Shown here: piece after piece, positions 15,923 to 57,485 of the stretch
Layout: each line of letters opens with the position of its first letter
How positions within the stretch are numbered: position 1 is the first letter of the stretch
DNA from: a virus
Lineage: Duplodnaviria; Caudoviricetes
Strand: one strand, 5' to 3'
IMG/VR virus record: IMGVR_UViG_3300029305_005387
Length of the DNA: 64,000 nt
Translations under genes and position numbers: made by a program
The notes under the pieces: generated by a model
The model's input: the letters and a program-made list of their open reading frames with translations, nothing else
Databases searched by the model: none
What the model was told of the DNA's origin: nothing

Positions 15923-16036
15923 ATGATTAATCCTAGAGATATTGAAGGCAAATCCGATGAAGAATTAAAAGAACTCCTCGGAGAAGACTTTATGGACGAA
16001 GTGTCCAATAACAAAGGAGAGGAGGATGATGACTAA
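15923..16036 (+). CDS. 37-aa acidic peptide translationally coupled to the lysin (not in ORF track)
   Basis: AAGGAGG RBS; MINPRDIEGKSDEELKELLGEDFMDEVSNNKGEEDDD; TAATG overlap. Confidence 0.7.
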   Translation: MINPRDIEGKSDEELKELLGEDFMDEVSNNKGEEDDD

Positions 16037-17373
16037 TGGCTGCTACACAGAAATTCTCAAATAGTGGTTTAATCTGCTATACAAAACTTAGTCCAAATCA
16101 TTCTGGGCTCAGAACACATAATATCGAACAAATTGCAATTCATACGATGGCAGGAAACTGTAGTGTTGAAACTTGTGGAGAAATTTTTGCTCCAAAAAGT
16201 AGACAGGCTTCTTCCAACTACGGCATTGGATCAGATGGTAGAATTGCTATGTATGTAGAAGAAAAGAATAGAAGCTGGTGTACTTCTTCTTCTGCAGTAG
16301 ATCAGAGAGCTATTACGATCGAAGTAGCTAGTAGTGTAAACAGATCTCCATGGCCATGTACAGATGCTGCTTATGAGTCATTGATTGATCTCTGTGTGGA
16401 CATTTGTCAGCGTAATCCTCACATCAAGAAAATTATGTGGGTAGGGGATAAGAGTTTACTTAATAAAACTGATAAACAGAATCTTGTACCACACCGCTGG
16501 ACAGCAAACAAGAGTTGTCCAGGAGATTGGTTATATGAGAGATTTGATGATATCAGAGACGAAGTTAATAAGAGATTATCTTCTAATGGATCAAATGTCA
16601 GCTCTAATACAGCTACTGTTATTACAAAAGAATCCAATGAATCTTATATTTGGAACTTCTTAACAGAGAAAGGTTTAAATGCATATGCAGTTGCTGGTAT
16701 TATGGGTAACTTGTTTGCTGAATCAGCTTTAATTCCTAATAACTTACAGAATACTTATGAAAAGAAATTAAGTTTAAGCGATTCTGAATATACTTCTAGA
16801 GTAGATTCTGGTAAGTATACTAACTTTGTTAAAGATAGTGCAGGATATGGTTTAGCTCAGTGGACTTATTGGTCTAGAAAACAGGCTTTACTTAACTATG
16901 CGAAGAAAACTAAAAAATCAATTGGTGATCTTCAGATGCAGTGTGAATTCTTATGGACAGAAATGCAGGGTTATAAGAAAATGATGACTGTTCTCAAGAG
17001 TGCAAAATCTGTTAGAGAAGCTTCTAATATTTTCTTGACTGAATTTGAAAGACCTGCAAACATGGGTATAGAAGTACAGAATAAGAGAACCTCTTATGGA
17101 GAAAAGTATTATAAAAATAATGCCAATACTTCTACAAGTAAACCAGCATCTTCTACTACAAGTGGTGCTAAAGTTCCTTACTTAGTAAAAGTTACTGCAA
17201 GCTCTTTGAATATCCGTAAAGGTCCTGGTACAAACTATGGAATCAACAGAGCTATTACAGATCGCGGAACATACACAATTGTAGCTGAAAGCTCTGGTAA
17301 GGGTGCTAGTAAGTGGGGCAAACTTAAATCAGGAGCTGGTTGGATTAGTCTTGATTATTGTCAGAAACGATAA
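16036..17373 (+). CDS. Endolysin: Amidase_2 + phage tail lysozyme-like domain + SH3b
   Basis: IAIHTMAG/SSNYGIG/PHRW..KSCPG; GIMGNLFAES, GYGLAQWT, FERPA; LNIRKGPGTNY...GWISL. Confidence 0.92.
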   Translation: MAATQKFSNSGLICYTKLSPNHSGLRTHNIEQIAIHTMAGNCSVETCGEIFAPKSRQASSNYGIGSDGRIAMYVEEKNRSWCTSSSAVDQRAITIEVASSVNRSPWPCTDAAYESLIDLCVDICQRNPHIKKIMWVGDKSLLNKTDKQNLVPHRWTANKSCPGDWLYERFDDIRDEVNKRLSSNGSNVSSNTATVITKESNESYIWNFLTEKGLNAYAVAGIMGNLFAESALIPNNLQNTYEKKLSLSDSEYTSRVDSGKYTNFVKDSAGYGLAQWTYWSRKQALLNYAKKTKKSIGDLQMQCEFLWTEMQGYKKMMTVLKSAKSVREASNIFLTEFERPANMGIEVQNKRTSYGEKYYKNNANTSTSKPASSTTSGAKVPYLVKVTASSLNIRKGPGTNYGINRAITDRGTYTIVAESSGKGASKWGKLKSGAGWISLDYCQKR

Positions 17374-18139
17374 AATGACAAAAAAACAATAGGGATGGAA
17401 ATACCATCCCTATTGTTTTTTTTGTCATTTTATTTTTATTCTTTGGAGGATCATATTTCCAAGTTTTTGGAATAGATGTGGTTGATGGAACATATGATGG
17501 ATTGTCTTTATACTCTTTATCATACTTACCTAGAAAATATTCTCGCCGCTTAATATCGAAACCATATTCCATATTCCATAAGTAGCATGCCATTTCCCAG
17601 TTAGTATAATTTGGAAAATCTTCATGATAATCCATCAGTAAATTTCTAATTTTATTCAAATCAGTTTTTCTCACATACCAATCAATGTATTCATCCTTAT
17701 GATATTCCATTTTATTATCTAAGAAATGAAATCTGGCAACTTTTGTTTCGCCACTTTTTAATTTTGATGAATTGAATACTTTGAAGTATGGAACTCCTAT
17801 ACGTTTCCTATCAGGGTTAACTTGAATTCTGAAGTTATGTTTTCTATCAATTGTAACGGTAGCCATCTCTGTAAGATATTCAGCTGCTTCTAAATATCCT
17901 TCCGGTTGCAATGATAAAAACTCTTCTCTACTCATTAAATCTGTATATAATTCCAAACATGATTCTTTCTGAATACTAAAACGTTCTTCTTCATCATAAT
18001 CTACTGAAATTAAATAGTCAGATTCATAAAGTTTATCATAATATTCACCATTCAATTTTACAGATTCAACGATACCTATACAATCATGCCAATGATCACC
18101 AATTATTTTAACAATGTCTCCTTCTTTAAATTTTAACAT
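17345..18139 (-). CDS. SH3/KOW-like N-terminus plus DUF4160-like domain; paralog of 29304-30512
   Basis: FKEGDIVKII; LTEMA followed by IQVNPD..PYFKV..VARFHF. Confidence 0.5.
   Translation of the reverse strand: MLKFKEGDIVKIIGDHWHDCIGIVESVKLNGEYYDKLYESDYLISVDYDEEERFSIQKESCLELYTDLMSREEFLSLQPEGYLEAAEYLTEMATVTIDRKHNFRIQVNPDRKRIGVPYFKVFNSSKLKSGETKVARFHFLDNKMEYHKDEYIDWYVRKTDLNKIRNLLMDYHEDFPNYTNWEMACYLWNMEYGFDIKRREYFLGKYDKEYKDNPSYVPSTTSIPKTWKYDPPKNKNKMTKKTIGMVFPSLLFFCHFIVSDNNQD
17370..17432. terminator. Long bidirectional terminator
   Basis: ~29-bp arms, 5-nt loop, A7 versus T8 run. Confidence 0.75.
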
Positions 18140-18165
18140 TCATATCATCTCCTTTCTATAAAAAT

Positions 18166-18209
18166 AATATATCATCAATGGGATCATATGATCCCATTGA
18201 TGATATATT
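18166..18209. terminator. Perfect 44-bp palindrome overlapping an early motif (18164-18172, minus)
   Basis: AATATATCATCAATGGGATCAT|ATGATCCCATTGATGATATATT. Confidence 0.7.
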
Positions 18210-18215
18210 GATAAA

Positions 18216-20846
18216 TTAATTCTCTAATACAGCTACTCTTCGGAATAAACCACAATGACAAAGTCCTATCTCGTTACTTTCTCTAAACTCTTTACACATA
18301 CATTTTGTATCAGGAGTCTTTTCAATAACACAAGGACAATATCCATCGTTTTCTTTAAGCTTTTTCTTAATAAGTTCTACGTGTTCTTTATCTTCATTAG
18401 CAATAATTTTAGTTTTTACATTACCAGATACAGATTCTGCACTTATTTTGAAGGAATCTATAATTTTATTTAATCCTTCAAATACATGTAAAACTTTACC
18501 ATCAAGAGATGTTGATACTAATGTAGGGGTTTTTGTAACATTTAAAGCTCTTGCTAATTCGATATTTGCAGCTCCGATAATTACATCATATTCGGTTCCA
18601 TGGTTATCAAGGAACTTCTTAGCTTCTTTACAGTTAGGGCATGTAGAAGATACAAATAGAATATTTGATTTAAAGTTCTTGAAATAATCTTCAGATATTT
18701 CCAAAGTATTTTCTTCTTTTTTATCTTGATTTAATGGTCCTTCATGAGTTAACTTCGAAGTAGTAATGTTATAATTCTGACGATCATCAAATTCCTGTGT
18801 TTTACCATCATTCCAATTCTGTACAGGACGATAGTACCCAGTGATACGACTGTATACTTCTGTAGATTCACCGCAATGAGGACACTTATATTGTTCACCT
18901 ACTAGATATCCATGATTTTTACATACAGAATATGTTGGACTTAAAGTAATATATGGAAGTCTGTAATTATCGGTGATAGTTTTTACAAGTTTAGCAGCTG
19001 ATTTCCAATCAGATAATTTTTCTCCTAAGAAAGCATGGAATACAGTACCTGAAGTATATAGAACTTGTAATTCATCCTGTACATCAAGAGCTTCAAAAAT
19101 ATCATCTGTACATCCTACTGGTAAATGTGAAGAGTTTGTATAGTAAGGAGTACCATTTTCATTAGCACTGATAATATCAGGATATCTCTCTTTATCATGT
19201 TTTGCTAATCTGAAAGAAGTTGATTCTGCTGGTGTAGCTTCAAGGTTATACAGATCACCATATAATTCTTGATAATCAGATAATCTATCTCTCATAAAGT
19301 TAAGAACAGCTTTTGCAAATTCTTGAGATTCTTTATGAGTTAAATCTTTCTGAATCCATTTAGCATTTAAACAAGCTTCATTCATACCAACAATACCAAT
19401 CGTAGAGAAATGGTTATCTAATGTACCAAGATATCTCTTTGTGTATGGATATAATCCAGCTTCAAGAAGTTTAGTAATAATCGTTCTTTTCACATTTAAA
19501 CTTCTTGCTGCAAGATCCATCAAATTTTTTAGCTTTGCATAGAATTCATCTTTATTTTGTGATAAATATGCAATTTTAGGTAAATTCAGTGTTACTACAC
19601 CGATACTACCTGTAGACTCTCCACTTCCGAAAAATCCACCCTGTTTCTTTCGCAATTCTCTTAGATCGAGCAATAACCGGCAGCACATACTACGGATATC
19701 ACTAGGATTTAGGTCACTATTTACGTAATTTGTGAAATATGGAATTCCATACTTAGCAGCCATTTCAAATAGAAGCTTGTTATTTTCAGTTTCAGACCAA
19801 TCGAAATCTTTTGTAATAGAATAAGTCGGGATGGGATACTGGAATCCTCTTCCATTAGCGTCTCCTTCAATCATCAATTCAATAAATGCCTTATTAATCA
19901 TATCAATTTCTTTCTGACATTCACCATATGTGAAATCTTGTTGTTTTCCACCAACGATGGCAGGAAGATTTTTCATATCTTCAGGACAAGTCCAATCTAA
20001 TGTTACATTAGAAAACGGAGCTTGTGTTCCCCAACGAGAAGGAGTATTTACACCATAAATGAAACTCTGTAAACATTGTTTAGTTTCTTTATAAGAAAGA
20101 TTATCAATCTTTACAAATGGTGCGAGGTAAGTATCAAATGAAGAAAATGCTTGTGCACCAGCCCATTCATTCTGCATGATACCTAAAAAGTTTACCATTT
20201 GATTACATAAAGTTGATAAATGACTTGCAGGTGTAGATGTAATCTTTCCAGGAACACCACCTAGTCCTTCTTCAATTAACTGACGTAAAGACCAACCAGC
20301 ACAATATGCCGTTAACATACCAAGATCATGAATATGGAAATCACAATTTCTATGAGCATTTGCAATGTCTTGATCGTAAACCTCTGACAACCAATAGTTT
20401 GCTGTTACTGCACCAGAGTTAGAAAGAATTAATCCGCCAACTGAGTATGTTACTGTAGAATTCTCTTTAACTCGCCAGTCATTAATTTTCAAATACTTGT
20501 CAATTGTCTCTTTATAATCAATAAGAGTGTTGTTTACATTGCGTAATTTCTCTCGTTGTTTTCTATATAAAATGTAAGCCTTTGCTACTTCAGTATATCC
20601 AGTTTCAGAAAGCACATGTTCTACACTATCTTGAATATCTTCAACACTGATTTTGTTTTCAACAATCTTTTCTTCAAAATCAGAATTGACTCTGATAGTG
20701 ATCAATTCGACTGTAGTTGAATGTACCTTTTTATTTGTAGCATCGAATGCTTTAGTAATTGCAGAAATAATTTTATTGATATTGAAATCAACAATTTCTC
20801 CGCTACGTTTGACTACTTTAAAGTCGTTAGTTGAAAAATGTTCCAT
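18216..20846 (-). CDS. nrdD: Anaerobic ribonucleoside-triphosphate reductase (ATP cone) with fused glutaredoxin-like and FTR-like domains
   Basis: VVKRSG ATP cone, SMCCRL, CKNHG/CPHC, YSRITGYY glycyl-radical loop; CPNC; CPC/CMC/CHC. Confidence 0.95.
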   Translation of the reverse strand: MEHFSTNDFKVVKRSGEIVDFNINKIISAITKAFDATNKKVHSTTVELITIRVNSDFEEKIVENKISVEDIQDSVEHVLSETGYTEVAKAYILYRKQREKLRNVNNTLIDYKETIDKYLKINDWRVKENSTVTYSVGGLILSNSGAVTANYWLSEVYDQDIANAHRNCDFHIHDLGMLTAYCAGWSLRQLIEEGLGGVPGKITSTPASHLSTLCNQMVNFLGIMQNEWAGAQAFSSFDTYLAPFVKIDNLSYKETKQCLQSFIYGVNTPSRWGTQAPFSNVTLDWTCPEDMKNLPAIVGGKQQDFTYGECQKEIDMINKAFIELMIEGDANGRGFQYPIPTYSITKDFDWSETENNKLLFEMAAKYGIPYFTNYVNSDLNPSDIRSMCCRLLLDLRELRKKQGGFFGSGESTGSIGVVTLNLPKIAYLSQNKDEFYAKLKNLMDLAARSLNVKRTIITKLLEAGLYPYTKRYLGTLDNHFSTIGIVGMNEACLNAKWIQKDLTHKESQEFAKAVLNFMRDRLSDYQELYGDLYNLEATPAESTSFRLAKHDKERYPDIISANENGTPYYTNSSHLPVGCTDDIFEALDVQDELQVLYTSGTVFHAFLGEKLSDWKSAAKLVKTITDNYRLPYITLSPTYSVCKNHGYLVGEQYKCPHCGESTEVYSRITGYYRPVQNWNDGKTQEFDDRQNYNITTSKLTHEGPLNQDKKEENTLEISEDYFKNFKSNILFVSSTCPNCKEAKKFLDNHGTEYDVIIGAANIELARALNVTKTPTLVSTSLDGKVLHVFEGLNKIIDSFKISAESVSGNVKTKIIANEDKEHVELIKKKLKENDGYCPCVIEKTPDTKCMCKEFRESNEIGLCHCGLFRRVAVLEN

Positions 20847-20934
20847 TATTTTACATCTCCTTTTTTAATTTTGATTAATATATTGAAATGACTTTTTTAA
20901 GATTTAAAGTCATTATAATATACGAAAATAAAAT

Positions 20935-20966
20935 TGATAGGTGTGGGAAATTTCCCACACCTATCA
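20935..20966. terminator. Perfect 32-bp palindrome
   Basis: TGATAGGTGTGGGAAA|TTTCCCACACCTATCA. Confidence 0.7.
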
Positions 20967-20972
20967 TTATTC

Positions 20973-22475
20973 TTAAGATACAACGATGTTCGGTTTATTT
21001 TCTTCAGTAAATACCATTGGTTGTCCACCATCATAAAGGTAATATAACTGAAGTTTATCTTTGTGCTTATTGCCACTAAGCATAATGTTGACATTACTCA
21101 TGTTAGTAGTTGCAGCACCGTAAGGCTGTACTAATAGGATACCTGCATATTCAGGATATTCTTCATTCGTTTTGTAATATACATTGTTTTCAATATAGAT
21201 ATTACATTTTGCATCACCTTTGGTACCAACACGAACCGCGTTACTGGAATATTCAAATACATTATCACGGATGTAGATATTTGCATTATCTTCTACATCA
21301 TAGATGTTGATAATGTTGTTAGAACATACAGATTCTTCAAAGTAGTTATTAGAAATAGAACTTCCATCAGTTAATTTCTGAACAAGTTCCATACCGTTGT
21401 AATAGCTACCTACTTCAGAAGTAACATTTGTACCAAAATAACATCCTTCAATTACAAGTTTAACTGGTTCATTTCCTCTAGCTAAGCAAAGATAAGATTT
21501 TTCCTGATAAGGTTCAATGTCTTTGATTACACAGTTTTCAAGTGAAACTGTTCCAGCTCCTGAAGTAAGATTTAAATATGCTTCTTTAGTAAGTGTAATA
21601 CCTTTCAAAGAAACATTTACATTTTCAGCGATATTGAAAGATCCACTAAATACAGTACCAGTATCTTTACCCTTGAAAGCGACTGTGTTAACTTTGATAT
21701 CAGGATTGCTACCTAAAATCTCTACATCTTTAGTGATATTAATTTTACCACTGACATCACCAGTAGGAAGATTTACAATACCAGATTCGGAAGAAGTAAT
21801 AGCTTCTTCAATTGCAGTTGCACTCATCTGAGTTACAGGAATTTCTTTATCTGCAAATTTAACTAACTTGATATCAATTTCTTTCACAGATCCATCTTCA
21901 ATGAATACAACTTTCTGAGGAGTCAACATAGAATCAGAAGTGATTGCAACAATCTTTGCAGTTACGTTCTTATCAACGCCATTATCCAAATCAAGATAAA
22001 TAAACTGCTGATAAATACTTCCTTCAAACAGATCAAATTCATTCAATCCATTGTCAGAAAGTTCAACCTCCATATGTACACCATACTTCAAACCAACAGA
22101 CATACGTTTTACAACATCACCATCAGGTTTGAATTCAAGAATTTCTCTTACAGGAACATTGATAACTTTAGAATGATATTGTTCAGAACAGTCAAGTGAG
22201 ATAGACTGTAGGGTTACATCTTCATCAAAGTAACTCTTTACGTCATCAATAGAACTGTAAACGTGTTTTACATTTTTCTTAGTGAAGCTAATCTTATCTA
22301 ATCGACCACTCACTACAGCAATGTCACCATTAAGAGCATATCGTAAATTCTCAATAATGTCTTCTTTTTCAAAGGCATCTGTAGTGATATCACCATTTTC
22401 ATAGATAGTATTGATCATTAACTTCAGCTTCTGAGATAAATGTGTTTCAATTACTCTTGCCATTTTAATTGTCAT
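20973..22475 (-). CDS. Protein with C-terminal right-handed beta-helix (pectin-lyase-like)
   Basis: Repeats LENCVI, IEGCYF, ISNNYF, IRDNVF, IENNVY, LSGN; late motif upstream. Confidence 0.7.
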   Translation of the reverse strand: MTIKMARVIETHLSQKLKLMINTIYENGDITTDAFEKEDIIENLRYALNGDIAVVSGRLDKISFTKKNVKHVYSSIDDVKSYFDEDVTLQSISLDCSEQYHSKVINVPVREILEFKPDGDVVKRMSVGLKYGVHMEVELSDNGLNEFDLFEGSIYQQFIYLDLDNGVDKNVTAKIVAITSDSMLTPQKVVFIEDGSVKEIDIKLVKFADKEIPVTQMSATAIEEAITSSESGIVNLPTGDVSGKINITKDVEILGSNPDIKVNTVAFKGKDTGTVFSGSFNIAENVNVSLKGITLTKEAYLNLTSGAGTVSLENCVIKDIEPYQEKSYLCLARGNEPVKLVIEGCYFGTNVTSEVGSYYNGMELVQKLTDGSSISNNYFEESVCSNNIINIYDVEDNANIYIRDNVFEYSSNAVRVGTKGDAKCNIYIENNVYYKTNEEYPEYAGILLVQPYGAATTNMSNVNIMLSGNKHKDKLQLYYLYDGGQPMVFTEENKPNIVVS

Positions 22476-57107: not shown

Positions 57108-57184
57108 GGGCCTTTAGCTCAGTTGGTTAGAGCATCCGGCTCATAACCGGACGGTCCCGGGTTCGAATCCCCGAAGGCCCACCA
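57108..57184 (+). tRNA. tRNA-Ile2 (CAT)
   Basis: Canonical cloverleaf GGGCCTT...AAGGCCCACCA, loop CTCATAA; acceptor resembles Firmicute Ile2 rather than Met. Confidence 0.9.
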
Positions 57185-57193
57185 TTAATATCA

Positions 57194-57303
57194 AAGTCAC
57201 ATACAGCAACTAATAAAACAAAATTGCTTATAGCTTCATGAGTTCGAATCTCATACTATTAAACTTTAATAGTTATCCAAGTGGCCAAAGGAACAAGTGA
57301 CTT
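57194..57303 (+). ncRNA. Circularly permuted, anticodon-less tRNA mimic (YrlA Y-RNA-like topology)
   Basis: Order T arm, loop-closed acceptor stem, D arm, all enclosed by AAGTCAC/GTGACTT. Confidence 0.75.
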
Positions 57304-57321
57304 ATGGATATATTAAAATAT

Positions 57322-57406
57322 GCCGGTATGATGGAATTGGCAGACATGACTGACTCAAAATCAGTTTCCATTAGGAGTAGCGGTTCGAGTCCGCTTACCG
57401 GCACCA
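57322..57406 (+). tRNA. tRNA-Leu (CAA)
   Basis: GCCGGTA...TACCGGCACCA, loop CTCAAAA, long variable arm. Confidence 0.93.
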
Positions 57407-57409
57407 TAT

Positions 57410-57485
57410 GCGTCTTTAGCTCAGTAGGAAGAGCAATGCACTTTTAATGCATGGGTCTGGAGTTCGAGCCTCCAAAGACGCACCA
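57410..57485 (+). tRNA. tRNA-Lys (TTT)
   Basis: GCGTCTT...AAGACGCACCA, loop CTTTTAA. Confidence 0.93.

What the first reader, a model, noticed from the sequence alone, without database searches (positions are those of the whole stretch)
18216..20846. NrdD fused to both a glutaredoxin-like and a ferredoxin:thioredoxin-reductase-like domain
Seen: after the glycyl-radical loop the frame continues into a CPNC redoxin (~18450-18670) and a ~60-aa domain with CPC, CMC and CHC (~18216-18410). Established: the FTR catalytic subunit uses CPC/CPC/CHC to hold a 4Fe-4S cluster and a disulfide, and some class III RNRs use redoxins instead of formate. Inference: a single-chain electron relay (ferredoxin to FTR to redoxin to RNR) that frees phage dNTP synthesis from host formate or NADPH systems.
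Basis: partly seen in the sequence, partly recalled or inferred. Interest (0 to 1): 0.7.

Follow-up and report, generated by a model that had tools for sequence, protein, structure and literature searches.

The report
Phage ribonucleotide reductase with built-in reductant chain
A giant gut phage encodes an oxygen-sensitive DNA-precursor enzyme (class III ribonucleotide reductase) fused to a small thiol-redox domain and a 60-residue iron-sulfur-type disulfide reductase domain, so parts that hundreds of other phages encode as separate neighbouring genes sit on one protein, probably letting it draw electrons from ferredoxin.

Summary
ORF 18216-20846 (-) encodes 876 aa: ATP-cone, NrdD, a CPNC thioredoxin-fold domain and a 66-aa CPC/CMC/CHC domain. 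Contigs from two other studies bridge both junctions without any difference, so the fusion is real.

The NrdD core has the thiol-dependent (NrdD2-like) set: beta-A Cys182, MCCR finger loop and Glu536. The last domain belongs to the ferredoxin:thioredoxin/disulfide reductase catalytic family. Its family profile hits 4TPU (E 1e-5). Its AF2 model (pLDDT 96) matches only 7PWE, 4TPU and 1DJ7 (Z 6.4, 6.3, 4.9) among 48,161 chains. All six Cys and the His are conserved in 131 relatives.

The same parts occur unfused as grx-nrdD-nrdG-miniFTR in Clostridium phage c-st, in most of 63 IMG/VR loci and in 46 of 66 metagenome loci. Cellular NrdD::Grx relatives (about 70% identical) usually carry a TrxB-like reductase gene downstream instead.

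No other triple fusion appeared in three large protein and contig searches. The likely mechanism is a relay from ferredoxin (donor unproven) to the Fe-S/disulfide domain, then the redoxin, then NrdD. This matches the M. barkeri NrdD/NrdH/FDR system and is untested here. No nrdG lies in the window. The scan has already noted related two-part versions on other DNA. This is a new variant of a known kind.

The parts
18216..20846 (-). Whole gene nrdD::grx::miniFTR, 876 codons plus stop (stop at 18216-18218)
   Evidence: junctions bridged by independent contigs
20550..20819 (-). ATP-cone (residues 10-99), allosteric activity site
   Evidence: Pfam PF03477, 74 bits
18771..20465 (-). Class III RNR catalytic domain (residues 128-692)
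   Evidence: PF13597 626 bits; NF006126 1129.8 bits against a cut-off of 548; PDB 8P23, 4COI and 4U3E
20301..20303 (-). Beta-A Cys182, aligned to T. maritima Cys125
19677..19688 (-). Finger loop M387-C388-C389-R390 (double-Cys motif with Met)
   Evidence: motif classes from PMC9669993
19239..19241 (-). Glu536, aligned to T. maritima Glu495 (proton donor of thiol-dependent NrdD)
18873..18884 (-). CPHC of the C-terminal zinc ribbon of the glycyl-radical domain
   Evidence: aligned to the CPxC of 8P23 and 4COI
18837..18839 (-). Gly670 in RITGYY, the glycyl radical site
18693..18770 (-). Linker, residues 693-718, mostly low-confidence (pLDDT under 50 for 693-706, about 52 for 703-712) in the AF2 model
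18432..18692 (-). Thioredoxin-fold (glutaredoxin-like) domain, residues 719-805, with CPNC at 18630-18641 and cis-Pro774 at 18525-18527
18219..18416 (-). Mini FTR/FDR catalytic-like domain, residues 811-876, with CPC at 18330-18338, CMC at 18294-18302 and CHC at 18252-18260
18166..18209 (-). Terminator-like hairpin (20-bp stem plus T run) 7 nt after the stop codon
20935..20966 (-). Terminator-like hairpin between the upstream gene and the nrdD start; with the downstream hairpin it suggests the gene is its own transcription unit

Best explanation
The gene encodes a class III (glycyl-radical) ribonucleoside-triphosphate reductase of the thiol-dependent type. Its reductant chain is fused to its C-terminus. 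The proposed path has four steps. (1) A low-potential one-electron donor of the host, most likely ferredoxin or possibly flavodoxin, reduces a [4Fe-4S] cluster. The cluster would be held by four of the six Cys of the 66-aa FTR/FDR-like domain (first Cys of CPC, both Cys of CMC, first Cys of CHC, by homology to FTR). (2) The cluster-assisted disulfide, formed by the second Cys of CPC and the second Cys of CHC (C839 and C865), is reduced. (3) That dithiol reduces the CPNC disulfide of the adjacent thioredoxin-fold domain. (4) The tethered redoxin domain starts about 50 residues after the glycyl-radical loop. It reduces the active-site disulfide between Cys182 and a finger-loop Cys (C388/C389) after each turnover, with Glu536 as proton donor. 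Shown here: the domain identities, the conserved residues, the reality of the fusion and the recurrent gene linkage. Inferred: cluster binding, the donor, the direction of electron flow and activity. The enzyme still needs an NrdG activase, which is not in the window and must come from elsewhere in the >190-kb phage genome or from the host.
For: The NrdD core carries the thiol-type set. Cys182 aligns to Tm Cys125, Glu536 to Tm Glu495, and the finger loop is MCCR. The redoxin domain passes Pfam Glutaredoxin above its cut-off. CPNC and the cis-Pro are invariant in the alignment with 33 relatives, and the model has a Trx fold. For the FTR-like domain, the profile of 131 relatives hits M. acetivorans FDR 4TPU at E 1.1e-5 and D. 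psychrophila Grx/FDR 7PWE at E 1.3e-3. C27, C39 and C41 are invariant, and P28, C29, C53, H54 and C55 are at least 90% conserved. The AF2 model has pLDDT 96.3. The Foldseek top 7 are all FTR/FDR. VIA-align against 48,161 chains gives only 7PWE (Z 6.4), 4TPU (Z 6.3) and 1DJ7 (Z 4.9), with the next hit at 2.3. The best PDB hit of the whole tail model is the Grx/FDR fusion 7PWE across both domains (E 1.9e-5). Linkage is strong. Phage c-st has miniFTR/NrdD/NrdG/Grx as neighbouring genes, and its miniFTR is 55% identical to the window domain. Most of 63 dereplicated IMG/VR loci show grx-nrdD-nrdG-miniFTR, and the middle ORF is Fer4_12 in 41 of 42. All 58 NrdDs in these cassettes have the beta-A Cys, the CC loop and the Glu, and 54 of 58 lack Met. 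In the metagenome set, 46 of 66 loci have NrdD and NrdG beside the miniFTR. Independent of RNR, the miniFTR sits next to a canonical WCGPC thioredoxin in 5 loci, and Trx::miniFTR fusions exist. Non-orthologous displacement also fits. NrdD::Grx relatives are 71% identical over 785 aa, and 25 of 39 such cellular loci have a TrxB-like reductase gene directly downstream. Precedent exists: NrdD3 uses a glutaredoxin-like NrdH and a ferredoxin disulfide reductase in M. barkeri (Wei et al. 2015, as cited in PMC9176816 Table 1, and PMC6262447).
Against: The FeThRed_B score of the window domain itself is just below Pfam's cut-off (18.5 and 21.6 against 22). The domain has only about 60 of the roughly 110 residues of FTRc, no variable subunit and no rubredoxin, so ferredoxin docking is unsupported. 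The middle motif is CMC, not CPC. No ferredoxin gene and no nrdG were found in the 64-kb window. The finger loop keeps Met387, so formate use is not excluded. The most frequent fused partner of the miniFTR elsewhere is NrdG, not a redoxin. The relative orientation of the two tail domains is not confidently predicted (pTM 0.51; rmsd about 11 A to 7PWE).
Confidence: 0.7

Rival explanations
1. The mini FTR-like domain serves the activase rather than turnover. Its Fe-S cluster would pass an electron to the radical-SAM cluster of NrdG for glycyl-radical generation, and its fusion to NrdD::Grx here would be incidental.
For: In the cassette the miniFTR gene directly follows nrdG. NrdG::miniFTR fusions (Fer4_12 + FeThRed_B) are the commonest fused form, about 35 of the best 120 long proteins.
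Against: The window gene has no nrdG beside it and appears to be monocistronic. The domain is joined to the redoxin, as in 7PWE. The two Cys that form the redox disulfide in FTR, and the His, are as conserved as the cluster ligands. MiniFTR pairs or fuses with thioredoxins where no NrdG is present. Adjacent genes fuse easily, so NrdG::FTR fusions may reflect gene order alone.
Confidence: 0.12
2. The enzyme runs on formate like NrdD1. The C-terminal Cys-rich module would be a zinc-binding, structural or redox-sensing appendage rather than an electron relay.
For: The finger loop is MCCR with Met387, and PMC9669993 says such enzymes appear to hold the components for either formate or thioredoxin. 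Six Cys plus His could bind zinc. The Pfam score is under the cut-off.
Against: The fold and profile match only FTR/FDR enzymes. The cellular relatives of this NrdD::Grx keep a dedicated disulfide reductase gene downstream. 54 of 58 cassette NrdDs lack the Met but keep the miniFTR.
Confidence: 0.1
3. The fusion is an assembly or sequencing artefact, or a decaying gene, and the domains are really separate genes.
For: The triple fusion was found nowhere else.
Against: Contigs from two other studies cover 18180-18906 and 18180-18945 with 0 differences and 0 gaps. No indels were reported in four runs, and a diverged variant keeps the frame. There is no in-frame ATG, GTG or TTG at the start of the FTR-like domain (read from the sequence).
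Confidence: 0.02

Closest known systems
Methanosarcina barkeri class III RNR system: NrdD3 + glutaredoxin-like NrdH + ferredoxin:disulfide reductase (Wei et al. 2015, Biochemistry 54:7019)
   Same: It uses the same three functional parts (class III RNR, small Grx-like redoxin, FTR-catalytic-like Fe-S disulfide reductase) and the same proposed electron path from ferredoxin.
   Different: There the parts are separate proteins, and the NrdD is the NrdD3 type (no Glu, no Met). The window protein has Glu536 and Met387 (NrdD2-like with Met), its FDR-like part is a 60-aa minimal domain, and everything is one polypeptide in a phage. The paper itself could not be read here. It is cited through PMC9176816, PMC5704485 and PMC6262447.
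Desulfotalea psychrophila glutaredoxin/ferredoxin disulfide reductase fusion protein (PDB 7PWE)
   Same: It has the same domain order (Grx then FDR). It is the best structural match of the mini domain (Z 6.4, 63 residues, rmsd 2.7) and of the whole tail model (E 1.9e-5).
   Different: It is a free-standing 196-aa protein, not attached to an RNR. Its FDR part is longer (chain residues 101-178 align to 63 window residues). Sequence identity is only 19-25%.
NrdD2: thioredoxin-dependent class III RNR (Neisseria bacilliformis; Thermotoga maritima 4COI/4U3E)
   Same: It shares the beta-A Cys, the double-Cys finger loop and the active-site Glu (PMC4493059; PMC9669993).
   Different: Those enzymes have SCCR (no Met), no ATP-cone in Tm, and use a free thioredoxin. 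There is no fused redoxin or reductase.
NrdG - NrdD::Grx - TrxB-like operon of gut Clostridia and Bacilli (e.g. MT835493; 39 of 54 closest genome loci)
   Same: The NrdD::Grx part is 60-76% identical (71% for MT835493 over 785 aa). It has the same ATP-cone, MCCR loop and CPNC redoxin.
   Different: The reductase is a separate 302-aa flavoprotein (Pyr_redox_2) downstream, and nrdG is adjacent. In the window the flavoprotein is replaced by an in-frame Fe-S-type mini domain, and nrdG is missing nearby.
Phage cassette grx-nrdD-nrdG-miniFTR (Clostridium phage c-st CST074-CST077; most of 63 IMG/VR loci) and crAss001 gp5
   Same: The miniFTR is homologous (55% identity to CST077, 44-67% to the IMG/VR copies, 36% to crAss001 gp5). 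The small CPxC redoxin is homologous too (29-33%).
   Different: The genes are separate. The NrdD belongs to another subgroup (about 25% identical, mostly NCCR). crAss001 has the miniFTR but no NrdD, and there it was read as an auxiliary gene unrelated to replication (PMC6235969).
Plant/cyanobacterial ferredoxin:thioredoxin reductase catalytic subunit (PDB 1DJ7, 2PU9, 7BZK)
   Same: It shares the CPC...CxC...CHC(xLF) signature and the core fold (Z 4.9, 59 residues).
   Different: FTRc is about 110 aa and works as a heterodimer with a variable subunit. The window domain is 66 aa, has CMC in place of the second CPC, and has no variable subunit.

Membership tests
Class III ribonucleotide reductase NrdD | Match to the curated family models above their cut-offs | tested here: met
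   PF13597 626 bits (cut-off 26.2); NF006126 1129.8 bits (cut-off 548); TIGR02487 521.8 bits (cut-off 326)
Class III ribonucleotide reductase NrdD | C-terminal glycyl-radical motif (RxxGY) preceded by a Cys-rich zinc ribbon | tested here: met
   RITGYY with Gly670 and CPHC at 655-658, aligned to 8P23 and 4COI. Gly is conserved in 58 of 58 phage NrdDs.
Class III ribonucleotide reductase NrdD | Cognate radical-SAM activase NrdG | tested here: not met
   No ORF of 60 aa or more has CxxxCxxC. There is no tblastn match to c-st NrdG or to 67 phage NrdG-like ORFs. No Fer4_12 or Radical_SAM family appears among 52 window ORFs. This holds for the 64-kb window only; the rest of the >190-kb genome could not be searched.
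Thiol-dependent NrdD (NrdD2 of Wei et al. 2014) | Third Cys (double-Cys finger loop) plus beta-A Cys plus active-site Glu | tested here: met
   C388/C389, C182 and E536 align to Tm SCCR, C125 and E495. Definitions come from PMC4493059 and PMC9669993.
Thiol-dependent NrdD (NrdD2 of Wei et al. 2014) | Absence of the finger-loop Met (the mark of thioredoxin-only enzymes) | tested here: not met
   The motif is MCCR, so Met387 is present. PMC9669993 says 83% of double-Cys enzymes have it and may use either reductant.
Glutaredoxin / thioredoxin-fold redoxin | CxxC at the start of helix 1, a conserved cis-Pro, and a Trx fold | tested here: met
   CPNC at 736-739 and Pro774 fall in invariant columns of A5. 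PF00462 scores 24.4 and 26.7 against 22.9. The AF2 tail model gives a beta-alpha-beta-alpha-beta-beta-alpha fold at pLDDT about 90 and many thioredoxin hits.
NrdH-redoxin (TIGR02194) | Family model score above the cut-off | tested here: not met
   TIGR02194 scores 14.2 bits against a cut-off of 85.75. It is a Grx/Trx-like redoxin, not an NrdH in the strict sense.
FTR catalytic subunit / ferredoxin:disulfide reductase (PF02943) | Pfam model above the gathering score | tested here: inconclusive
   The window domain scores 18.5 bits (whole protein) and 21.6 bits (tail) against 22. Close relatives pass with 24.5 and 28.7 bits. The family profile hits 4TPU at E 1.1e-5 and 7PWE at E 1.3e-3.
FTR catalytic subunit / ferredoxin:disulfide reductase (PF02943) | Six Cys in three CxC motifs (four cluster ligands plus the redox disulfide) with His in the last motif | tested here: met
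   CPC 837-839, CMC 849-851 and CHC 863-865 are invariant or at least 90% conserved in 131 relatives and align to the CPC/CPC/C[YH]C of 4TPU and 7PWE. The assignment of which Cys binds iron rests on established FTR structures, not on a test here.
FTR catalytic subunit / ferredoxin:disulfide reductase (PF02943) | FTRc core fold | tested here: met
   The AF2 model has pLDDT 96.3. The only matches with Z>=2.5 among 48,161 chains are 7PWE, 4TPU and 1DJ7. The Foldseek top 7 are all FTR/FDR, with TMq 0.56-0.71.
FTR catalytic subunit / ferredoxin:disulfide reductase (PF02943) | Binds a [4Fe-4S] cluster and accepts electrons from ferredoxin | not testable with these tools
   This needs anaerobic purification, spectroscopy and an activity assay.
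FTR catalytic subunit / ferredoxin:disulfide reductase (PF02943) | Electron-input partner: variable subunit (FTR) or rubredoxin domain (M. acetivorans FDR) | tested here: not met
   The domain ends 11 residues after CHC, and Pfam shows no further domain on the protein. The alignment covers profile positions 33-85 of 106.

The most novel reading that the evidence does not exclude
The 60-residue CPC/CMC/CHC module may be the smallest self-sufficient ferredoxin-linked disulfide reductase. If so, it is a general and so far unrecognised device by which hundreds of gut phages wire their own thiol-dependent class III RNR to the host's reduced-ferredoxin pool. This window would then hold its end-state: a single polypeptide that carries the whole path from Fe-S cluster to nucleotide, possibly also feeding the NrdG activase. 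That would give a one-protein system in which redoxin access to the buried glycyl-radical active site can be studied.
Probability: 0.35. Interest if true: 0.75.

Novelty: new variant of a known kind. Interest (0 to 1): 0.55.

Why it matters
How thiol-dependent class III RNRs receive electrons is known biochemically for only two systems: N. bacilliformis with thioredoxin, and M. barkeri with NrdH and FDR. How a redoxin reaches an active site capped by the glycyl-radical domain is not known.

A natural single-chain NrdD-redoxin-reductase fixes the stoichiometry and proximity of all partners. That makes it a convenient object for structural and kinetic work.

The survey behind it shows that a 60-aa FTR-like gene is tightly linked to thiol-type class III RNR genes in very many gut phages. 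In crAss001 this gene was annotated as an auxiliary gene unrelated to replication. The linkage suggests that these phages tie anaerobic dNTP supply to ferredoxin rather than to NADPH or formate. If true, this bears on phage replication in fermenting hosts and on the minimal requirements of FTR-type chemistry.

Tried and rejected
Complex prediction. Complex prediction on the redoxin domain (A5) with the miniFTR domain (A3) scored 0.22 and 0.21 against a mark of 0.32. The verdict was 'no answer', so it counts neither for nor against.

Expression. No RNA holder was listed among the sequencing runs, so nothing can be said about expression.

No whole genome is held for the window. The rest of the phage genome could therefore not be searched for nrdG or ferredoxin.

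Searches that found nothing. An exact 41-nt pattern from the Grx-FTR linker found nothing in IMG/VR. Absence of the triple fusion there is therefore weak evidence.

Alignments. MAFFT put the Grx-like ORFs onto the FTR region when many miniFTR rows were included (A2 and A7). Those alignments were discarded. A6, with only 3 miniFTR rows, was used for the tail model, so its FTR part and the inter-domain geometry are less reliable.

Weak scores. The Foldseek E-values for the 66-aa model are weak (0.2-1.6), so the fold call rests on the rank pattern and on VIA-align. phmmer of the tail against the PDB found only thioredoxins and glutaredoxins, not FTR. The family profile was needed.

Papers not held. 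Wei 2015, Wei 2014 and Prakash 2018 could not be read. No paper linking phage FTR-like genes to class III RNR was found.

Artefact reading. Rejected on the contig evidence.
Full report
OBSERVATION

The minus strand carries one uninterrupted ORF, 18216..20846, of 876 codons. Pfam and NCBIfam place four elements on it:
- an ATP-cone at residues 10-99;
- the class III RNR catalytic domain at 128-692 (PF13597, 626 bits; equivalog NF006126, 1129.8 bits against a cut-off of 548);
- a glutaredoxin-type match around CPNC (24.4 bits on the whole protein and 26.7 on the tail, cut-off 22.9);
- a match to the ferredoxin:thioredoxin reductase catalytic chain at 825-868 (18.5 and 21.6 bits, cut-off 22, so just under).

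Translation of the exact coordinates confirms each motif. MCCR lies at 19677-19688, Gly670 of RITGYY at 18837-18839, CPNC at 18630-18641, CPC at 18330-18338, CMC at 18294-18302 and CHC at 18252-18260.

IS THE FUSION REAL?

Twenty public runs hold part of 18150-19000, seven of them half or more of its sampled words. Four runs were laid on 18100-20900. Two of them, from different studies and not the likely source sample, each have a contig with no differences and no gaps (X2: 18180-18945; X3: 18180-18906). These contigs span the stop codon, both extra domains, the linker and the glycyl-radical region. No insertion or deletion was reported in any run. A diverged variant in X7 has 8 substitutions over 18256-18490 and keeps the frame. 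A truncated, identical copy (P0002, 767 aa, cut by a contig end inside the redoxin domain) is on record separately. The start of the FTR-like domain has no in-frame ATG, GTG or TTG (sequence), so it is not a hidden separate gene. Strong terminator-like hairpins lie just upstream (20935-20966) and 7 nt downstream (18166-18209) of the ORF. The gene therefore looks like its own transcription unit.

THE NrdD CORE

The HMMER alignment to T. maritima NrdD (4COI) puts Cys182 on Tm Cys125 (beta-A) and Glu536 on Tm Glu495. The finger loop reads S-M-C-C-R. By the published criteria this is the NrdD2-like, thiol-capable type: a third Cys plus Glu defines NrdD2, and some members also have the Met (PMC4493059). 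[quoted passage not shown] Thiol use is therefore expected, and formate use is not excluded.

THE REDOXIN DOMAIN (residues about 719-805)

An alignment with 33 relatives shows CPxC and the cis-Pro (Pro774) as invariant columns. The AF2 tail model gives a thioredoxin fold at pLDDT about 90 for this part, and many thioredoxins appear among its PDB matches. The NrdH model scores far under its cut-off (14 against 86 bits). 'Grx/Trx-like redoxin' is therefore the safe name.

THE LAST DOMAIN (residues 811-876)

The exhaustive search of 1.84 billion representatives found 949 homologues at E<=1e-3. The best 150 are all 61-271 aa, and none matches both the redoxin and the FTR-like part of the tail. In an alignment of 131 of them, C27, C39 and C41 are invariant. 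G25, Y26, P28, C29, F44, G51, C53, H54 and C55 are at least 90% conserved. This covers all six Cys and the His of CPC...CMC...CHC.

The profile hits the solved M. acetivorans ferredoxin-dependent disulfide reductase 4TPU (E 1.1e-5) and the D. psychrophila Grx/FDR fusion 7PWE (E 1.3e-3), with the three Cys pairs in register. The AF2 model is very confident (pLDDT 96.3). The seven best Foldseek matches are all FTR or FDR chains (TMq 0.56-0.71), after which the probability collapses. A Foldseek-independent comparison with 48,161 representative chains gives only 7PWE (Z 6.4, 63 residues, 2.7 A), 4TPU (Z 6.3) and spinach/Synechocystis-type FTR 1DJ7 (Z 4.9), and the next hit scores 2.3.

The domain is therefore a minimal FTR/FDR catalytic core. 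It lacks about 30 N-terminal and 20 C-terminal residues of FTRc and has no variable subunit or rubredoxin. The whole tail model finds 7PWE as its best PDB match over both domains (E 1.9e-5), but the domain orientation does not superpose (rmsd about 11 A; pTM 0.51).

COMPARATIVE CONTEXT

1. Clostridium phage c-st carries neighbouring genes annotated as a 63-aa protein 'weakly similar to ferredoxin-thioredoxin reductase', NrdD, an NrdG-like protein and a glutaredoxin. The 63-aa protein is 55% identical to the window domain.

2. In IMG/VR, 192 loci encode a relative of the mini domain. In almost all of the 80 kept, it lies 0.4-3 kb downstream of an nrdD on the same strand. The dereplicated set of 63 typically shows a CPxC redoxin of about 70 aa, then NrdD of about 640 aa, then a protein of about 160 aa, then the miniFTR of about 65 aa. 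The 160-aa protein is Fer4_12 (NrdG-type) in 41 of 42 cases. The small redoxins are 29-33% identical to the window's redoxin domain. All 58 distinct NrdDs of these cassettes have the beta-A Cys, the CC loop and the Glu, and 54 lack the Met (NCCR 50, SCCR 4). That is the pattern ascribed to thioredoxin-only enzymes.

3. Of 66 distinct metagenome loci, 46 have NrdD and NrdG beside the miniFTR and 10 more have NrdG. Five have no RNR genes but a canonical WCGPC thioredoxin directly adjacent.

4. Among longer proteins that contain the module, the best 120 include about 35 NrdG::miniFTR fusions and about 8 Trx::miniFTR fusions. They also include fusions to dUTPase, ThyX and others, but none to NrdD (L078 checked).

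5. The window's NrdD::redoxin part is 71% identical over 785 residues to an 802-aa NrdD::Grx in MT835493. There it sits between nrdG and a 302-aa TrxB-like flavoprotein. Of the 54 closest loci in species-representative genomes (gut Clostridia and Bacilli MAGs, 53-76% identity), 39 have the redoxin at the NrdD C-terminus, and 25 of those have the TrxB-like gene within 1.5 kb downstream. Only 3 of the 54 have a miniFTR nearby.

6. L207, with an NrdD 74% identical to the window's, has a separate grx upstream and a miniFTR ORF abutting the nrdD stop.

Three searches that could have found another NrdD::redoxin::miniFTR protein found none. These searches have known limits (word sharing, top-150 and top-120 listing). 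'Rare' is justified; 'unique' is not.

MECHANISM

The best-supported reading is an intramolecular version of the ferredoxin to FDR to redoxin to NrdD path. The homology to FTR/FDR assigns four Cys to a [4Fe-4S] cluster and two Cys (the second of CPC and the second of CHC) to the redox-active disulfide. This assignment is established knowledge of FTR, not tested here. That dithiol would reduce CPNC. The tethered redoxin begins about 50 residues after the glycyl-radical loop that plugs the active site. It would re-reduce the Cys182-Cys388/389 disulfide after each turnover.

Three lines of evidence support a disulfide-reductase role for the mini domain:
- the conservation of the non-ligand Cys pair and the His;
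- its pairing and fusion with thioredoxins in the absence of RNR genes;
- its position in the slot that a TrxB-like reductase fills in the closest cellular operons.

Precedent comes from the M. barkeri system (cited) and from the solved Grx/FDR fusion. I put this reading at about 0.7.

RIVALS

A. The module could feed NrdG's radical-SAM cluster instead. NrdG::miniFTR fusions are the most frequent fused form. However, nrdG and the miniFTR gene are neighbours, so they fuse easily. The window gene also has no nrdG at all. I put this at about 0.12, and a dual role is possible.

B. The enzyme could use formate with a zinc-binding or sensing appendage (Met387 is present), at about 0.1.

C. An artefact is essentially excluded.

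GAPS

No nrdG-like ORF and no ferredoxin were found in the 64-kb window. The CxxxCxxC scan alone would miss the phage NrdG type, whose Cys spacing differs, but the homology and Pfam tallies cover that case. Earlier notes place further windows of the same genome more than 110 kb beyond this one, so the phage exceeds 190 kb. The activase may lie elsewhere in the phage genome or be supplied by the host. The window has phiKZ-like head proteins and protease, gyrase A, polyphosphate kinase and NAD ligase. Its endolysin has an amidase_2, lysozyme and SH3 architecture. The runs that hold it are animal faecal and gut metagenomes.

NOVELTY

Each pairwise link is known or annotated:
- FDR with NrdH and NrdD in M. 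barkeri;
- Grx::FDR in 7PWE;
- NrdD::Grx in gut Firmicutes;
- a 'weakly FTR-like' ORF beside nrdD in phage c-st;
- gp5 'ferredoxin-thioredoxin reductase' in crAss001, which is a 65-aa homologue (36% identity) in a phage without NrdD, read there as unrelated to replication.

Full-text searches found no paper linking phage FTR-like genes to class III RNR. Earlier notes of this scan describe sister arrangements on other DNA: NrdD::Grx with a separate miniFTR, and an FTR::Grx fusion between nrdD and nrdG. The triple fusion is therefore a new variant of a known kind. It is interesting mainly as a natural single-chain model system and as the clearest 'Rosetta stone' for a widespread phage module.

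Noticed in passing
L077:1917-2585 and L078:5512-6180; P0155-P0268: NrdG::miniFTR fusion proteins of about 220-250 aa (Fer4_12 + FeThRed_B, 28.7 bits in L078) are the most common fused form of the module, about 35 of the best 120 long hits.
   Followed up: partly
L118:1269-1833, L138:8464-8994, also L120, L156, L160: In bacterial-looking contigs the 65-69-aa miniFTR sits directly beside a canonical WCGPC thioredoxin with no nrdD or nrdG nearby. Trx::miniFTR fusions of 176-215 aa also exist (P0168, P0171, P0173, P0182, P0209, P0245 from Agathobacter).
   Followed up: partly
P0003, P0004: The miniFTR module forms the N-terminus of 488-491-aa proteins whose remainder is HNH_3 homing-endonuclease-like with repeated Cys-rich units. 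The cluster has 158 member sequences. It is unclear whether this is a real fusion or a gene-calling read-through.
   Followed up: no
P0169, P0184, P0191, P0196, P0234, P0255, P0269, P0270, P0163, P0206, P0237: The miniFTR is also listed fused to dUTPase, ThyX (PF02511, 138 members), SHMT and URO-D-like proteins. In phage c-st the dUTPase gene is the miniFTR's neighbour. The module travels with phage nucleotide-metabolism genes.
   Followed up: no
L163:2271-2465 (Bacteroides phage crAss001 gp5): gp5 is a 65-aa miniFTR (CPC, CPC, CHC; 36% identical to the window domain) embedded in a tRNA array. crAss001 has no NrdD (0 matches to PF13597), so its target there must be a host protein.
   Followed up: partly
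L207:4109-7663; L017:3204-5156; L031:2839-5902; L003:4402-5064: Several phage nrdD genes are split into two or three ORFs, with a gap of about 0.9 kb in L207. In L003 a GIY-YIG-like ORF lies between nrdD and nrdG. These look like intron, intein or homing-endonuclease insertions.
   Followed up: no
L082 (MT835493.1 44500-52500): This record is deposited as 'UNVERIFIED: Bacteriophage sp.'. The region has a cellular-type operon, nrdG - nrdD::grx (802 aa) - trxB-like (302 aa), and by eye a much higher G+C than the window. It may be bacterial DNA.
   Followed up: partly
window 18288-18381: Summed contig depth in runs X3 and X4 jumps to 150-175 over the miniFTR domain, against about 5-7 over the redoxin domain and linker beside it. 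This fits contigs of many other organisms that share this conserved module at 90% identity or more.
   Followed up: no
window 1-64000; tRNAs at 57108-57485: The window is from a phiKZ-like jumbo phage (phiKZ_IP, Peptidase_S80). It carries gyrase A, a polyphosphate kinase, NAD-dependent ligase, a GNAT, a PLD-like nuclease and tRNA-Met, tRNA-Leu and tRNA-Lys. The endolysin at 16036-17373 has amidase_2, lysozyme and SH3, which suggests a Gram-positive host.
   Followed up: no
window 17345-18139 (-) and 20973-22475 (-): Neither gene flanking nrdD (264 aa and 500 aa) has a Pfam match at E<=0.01. Neither is an activase or a redox protein by sequence.
   Followed up: partly
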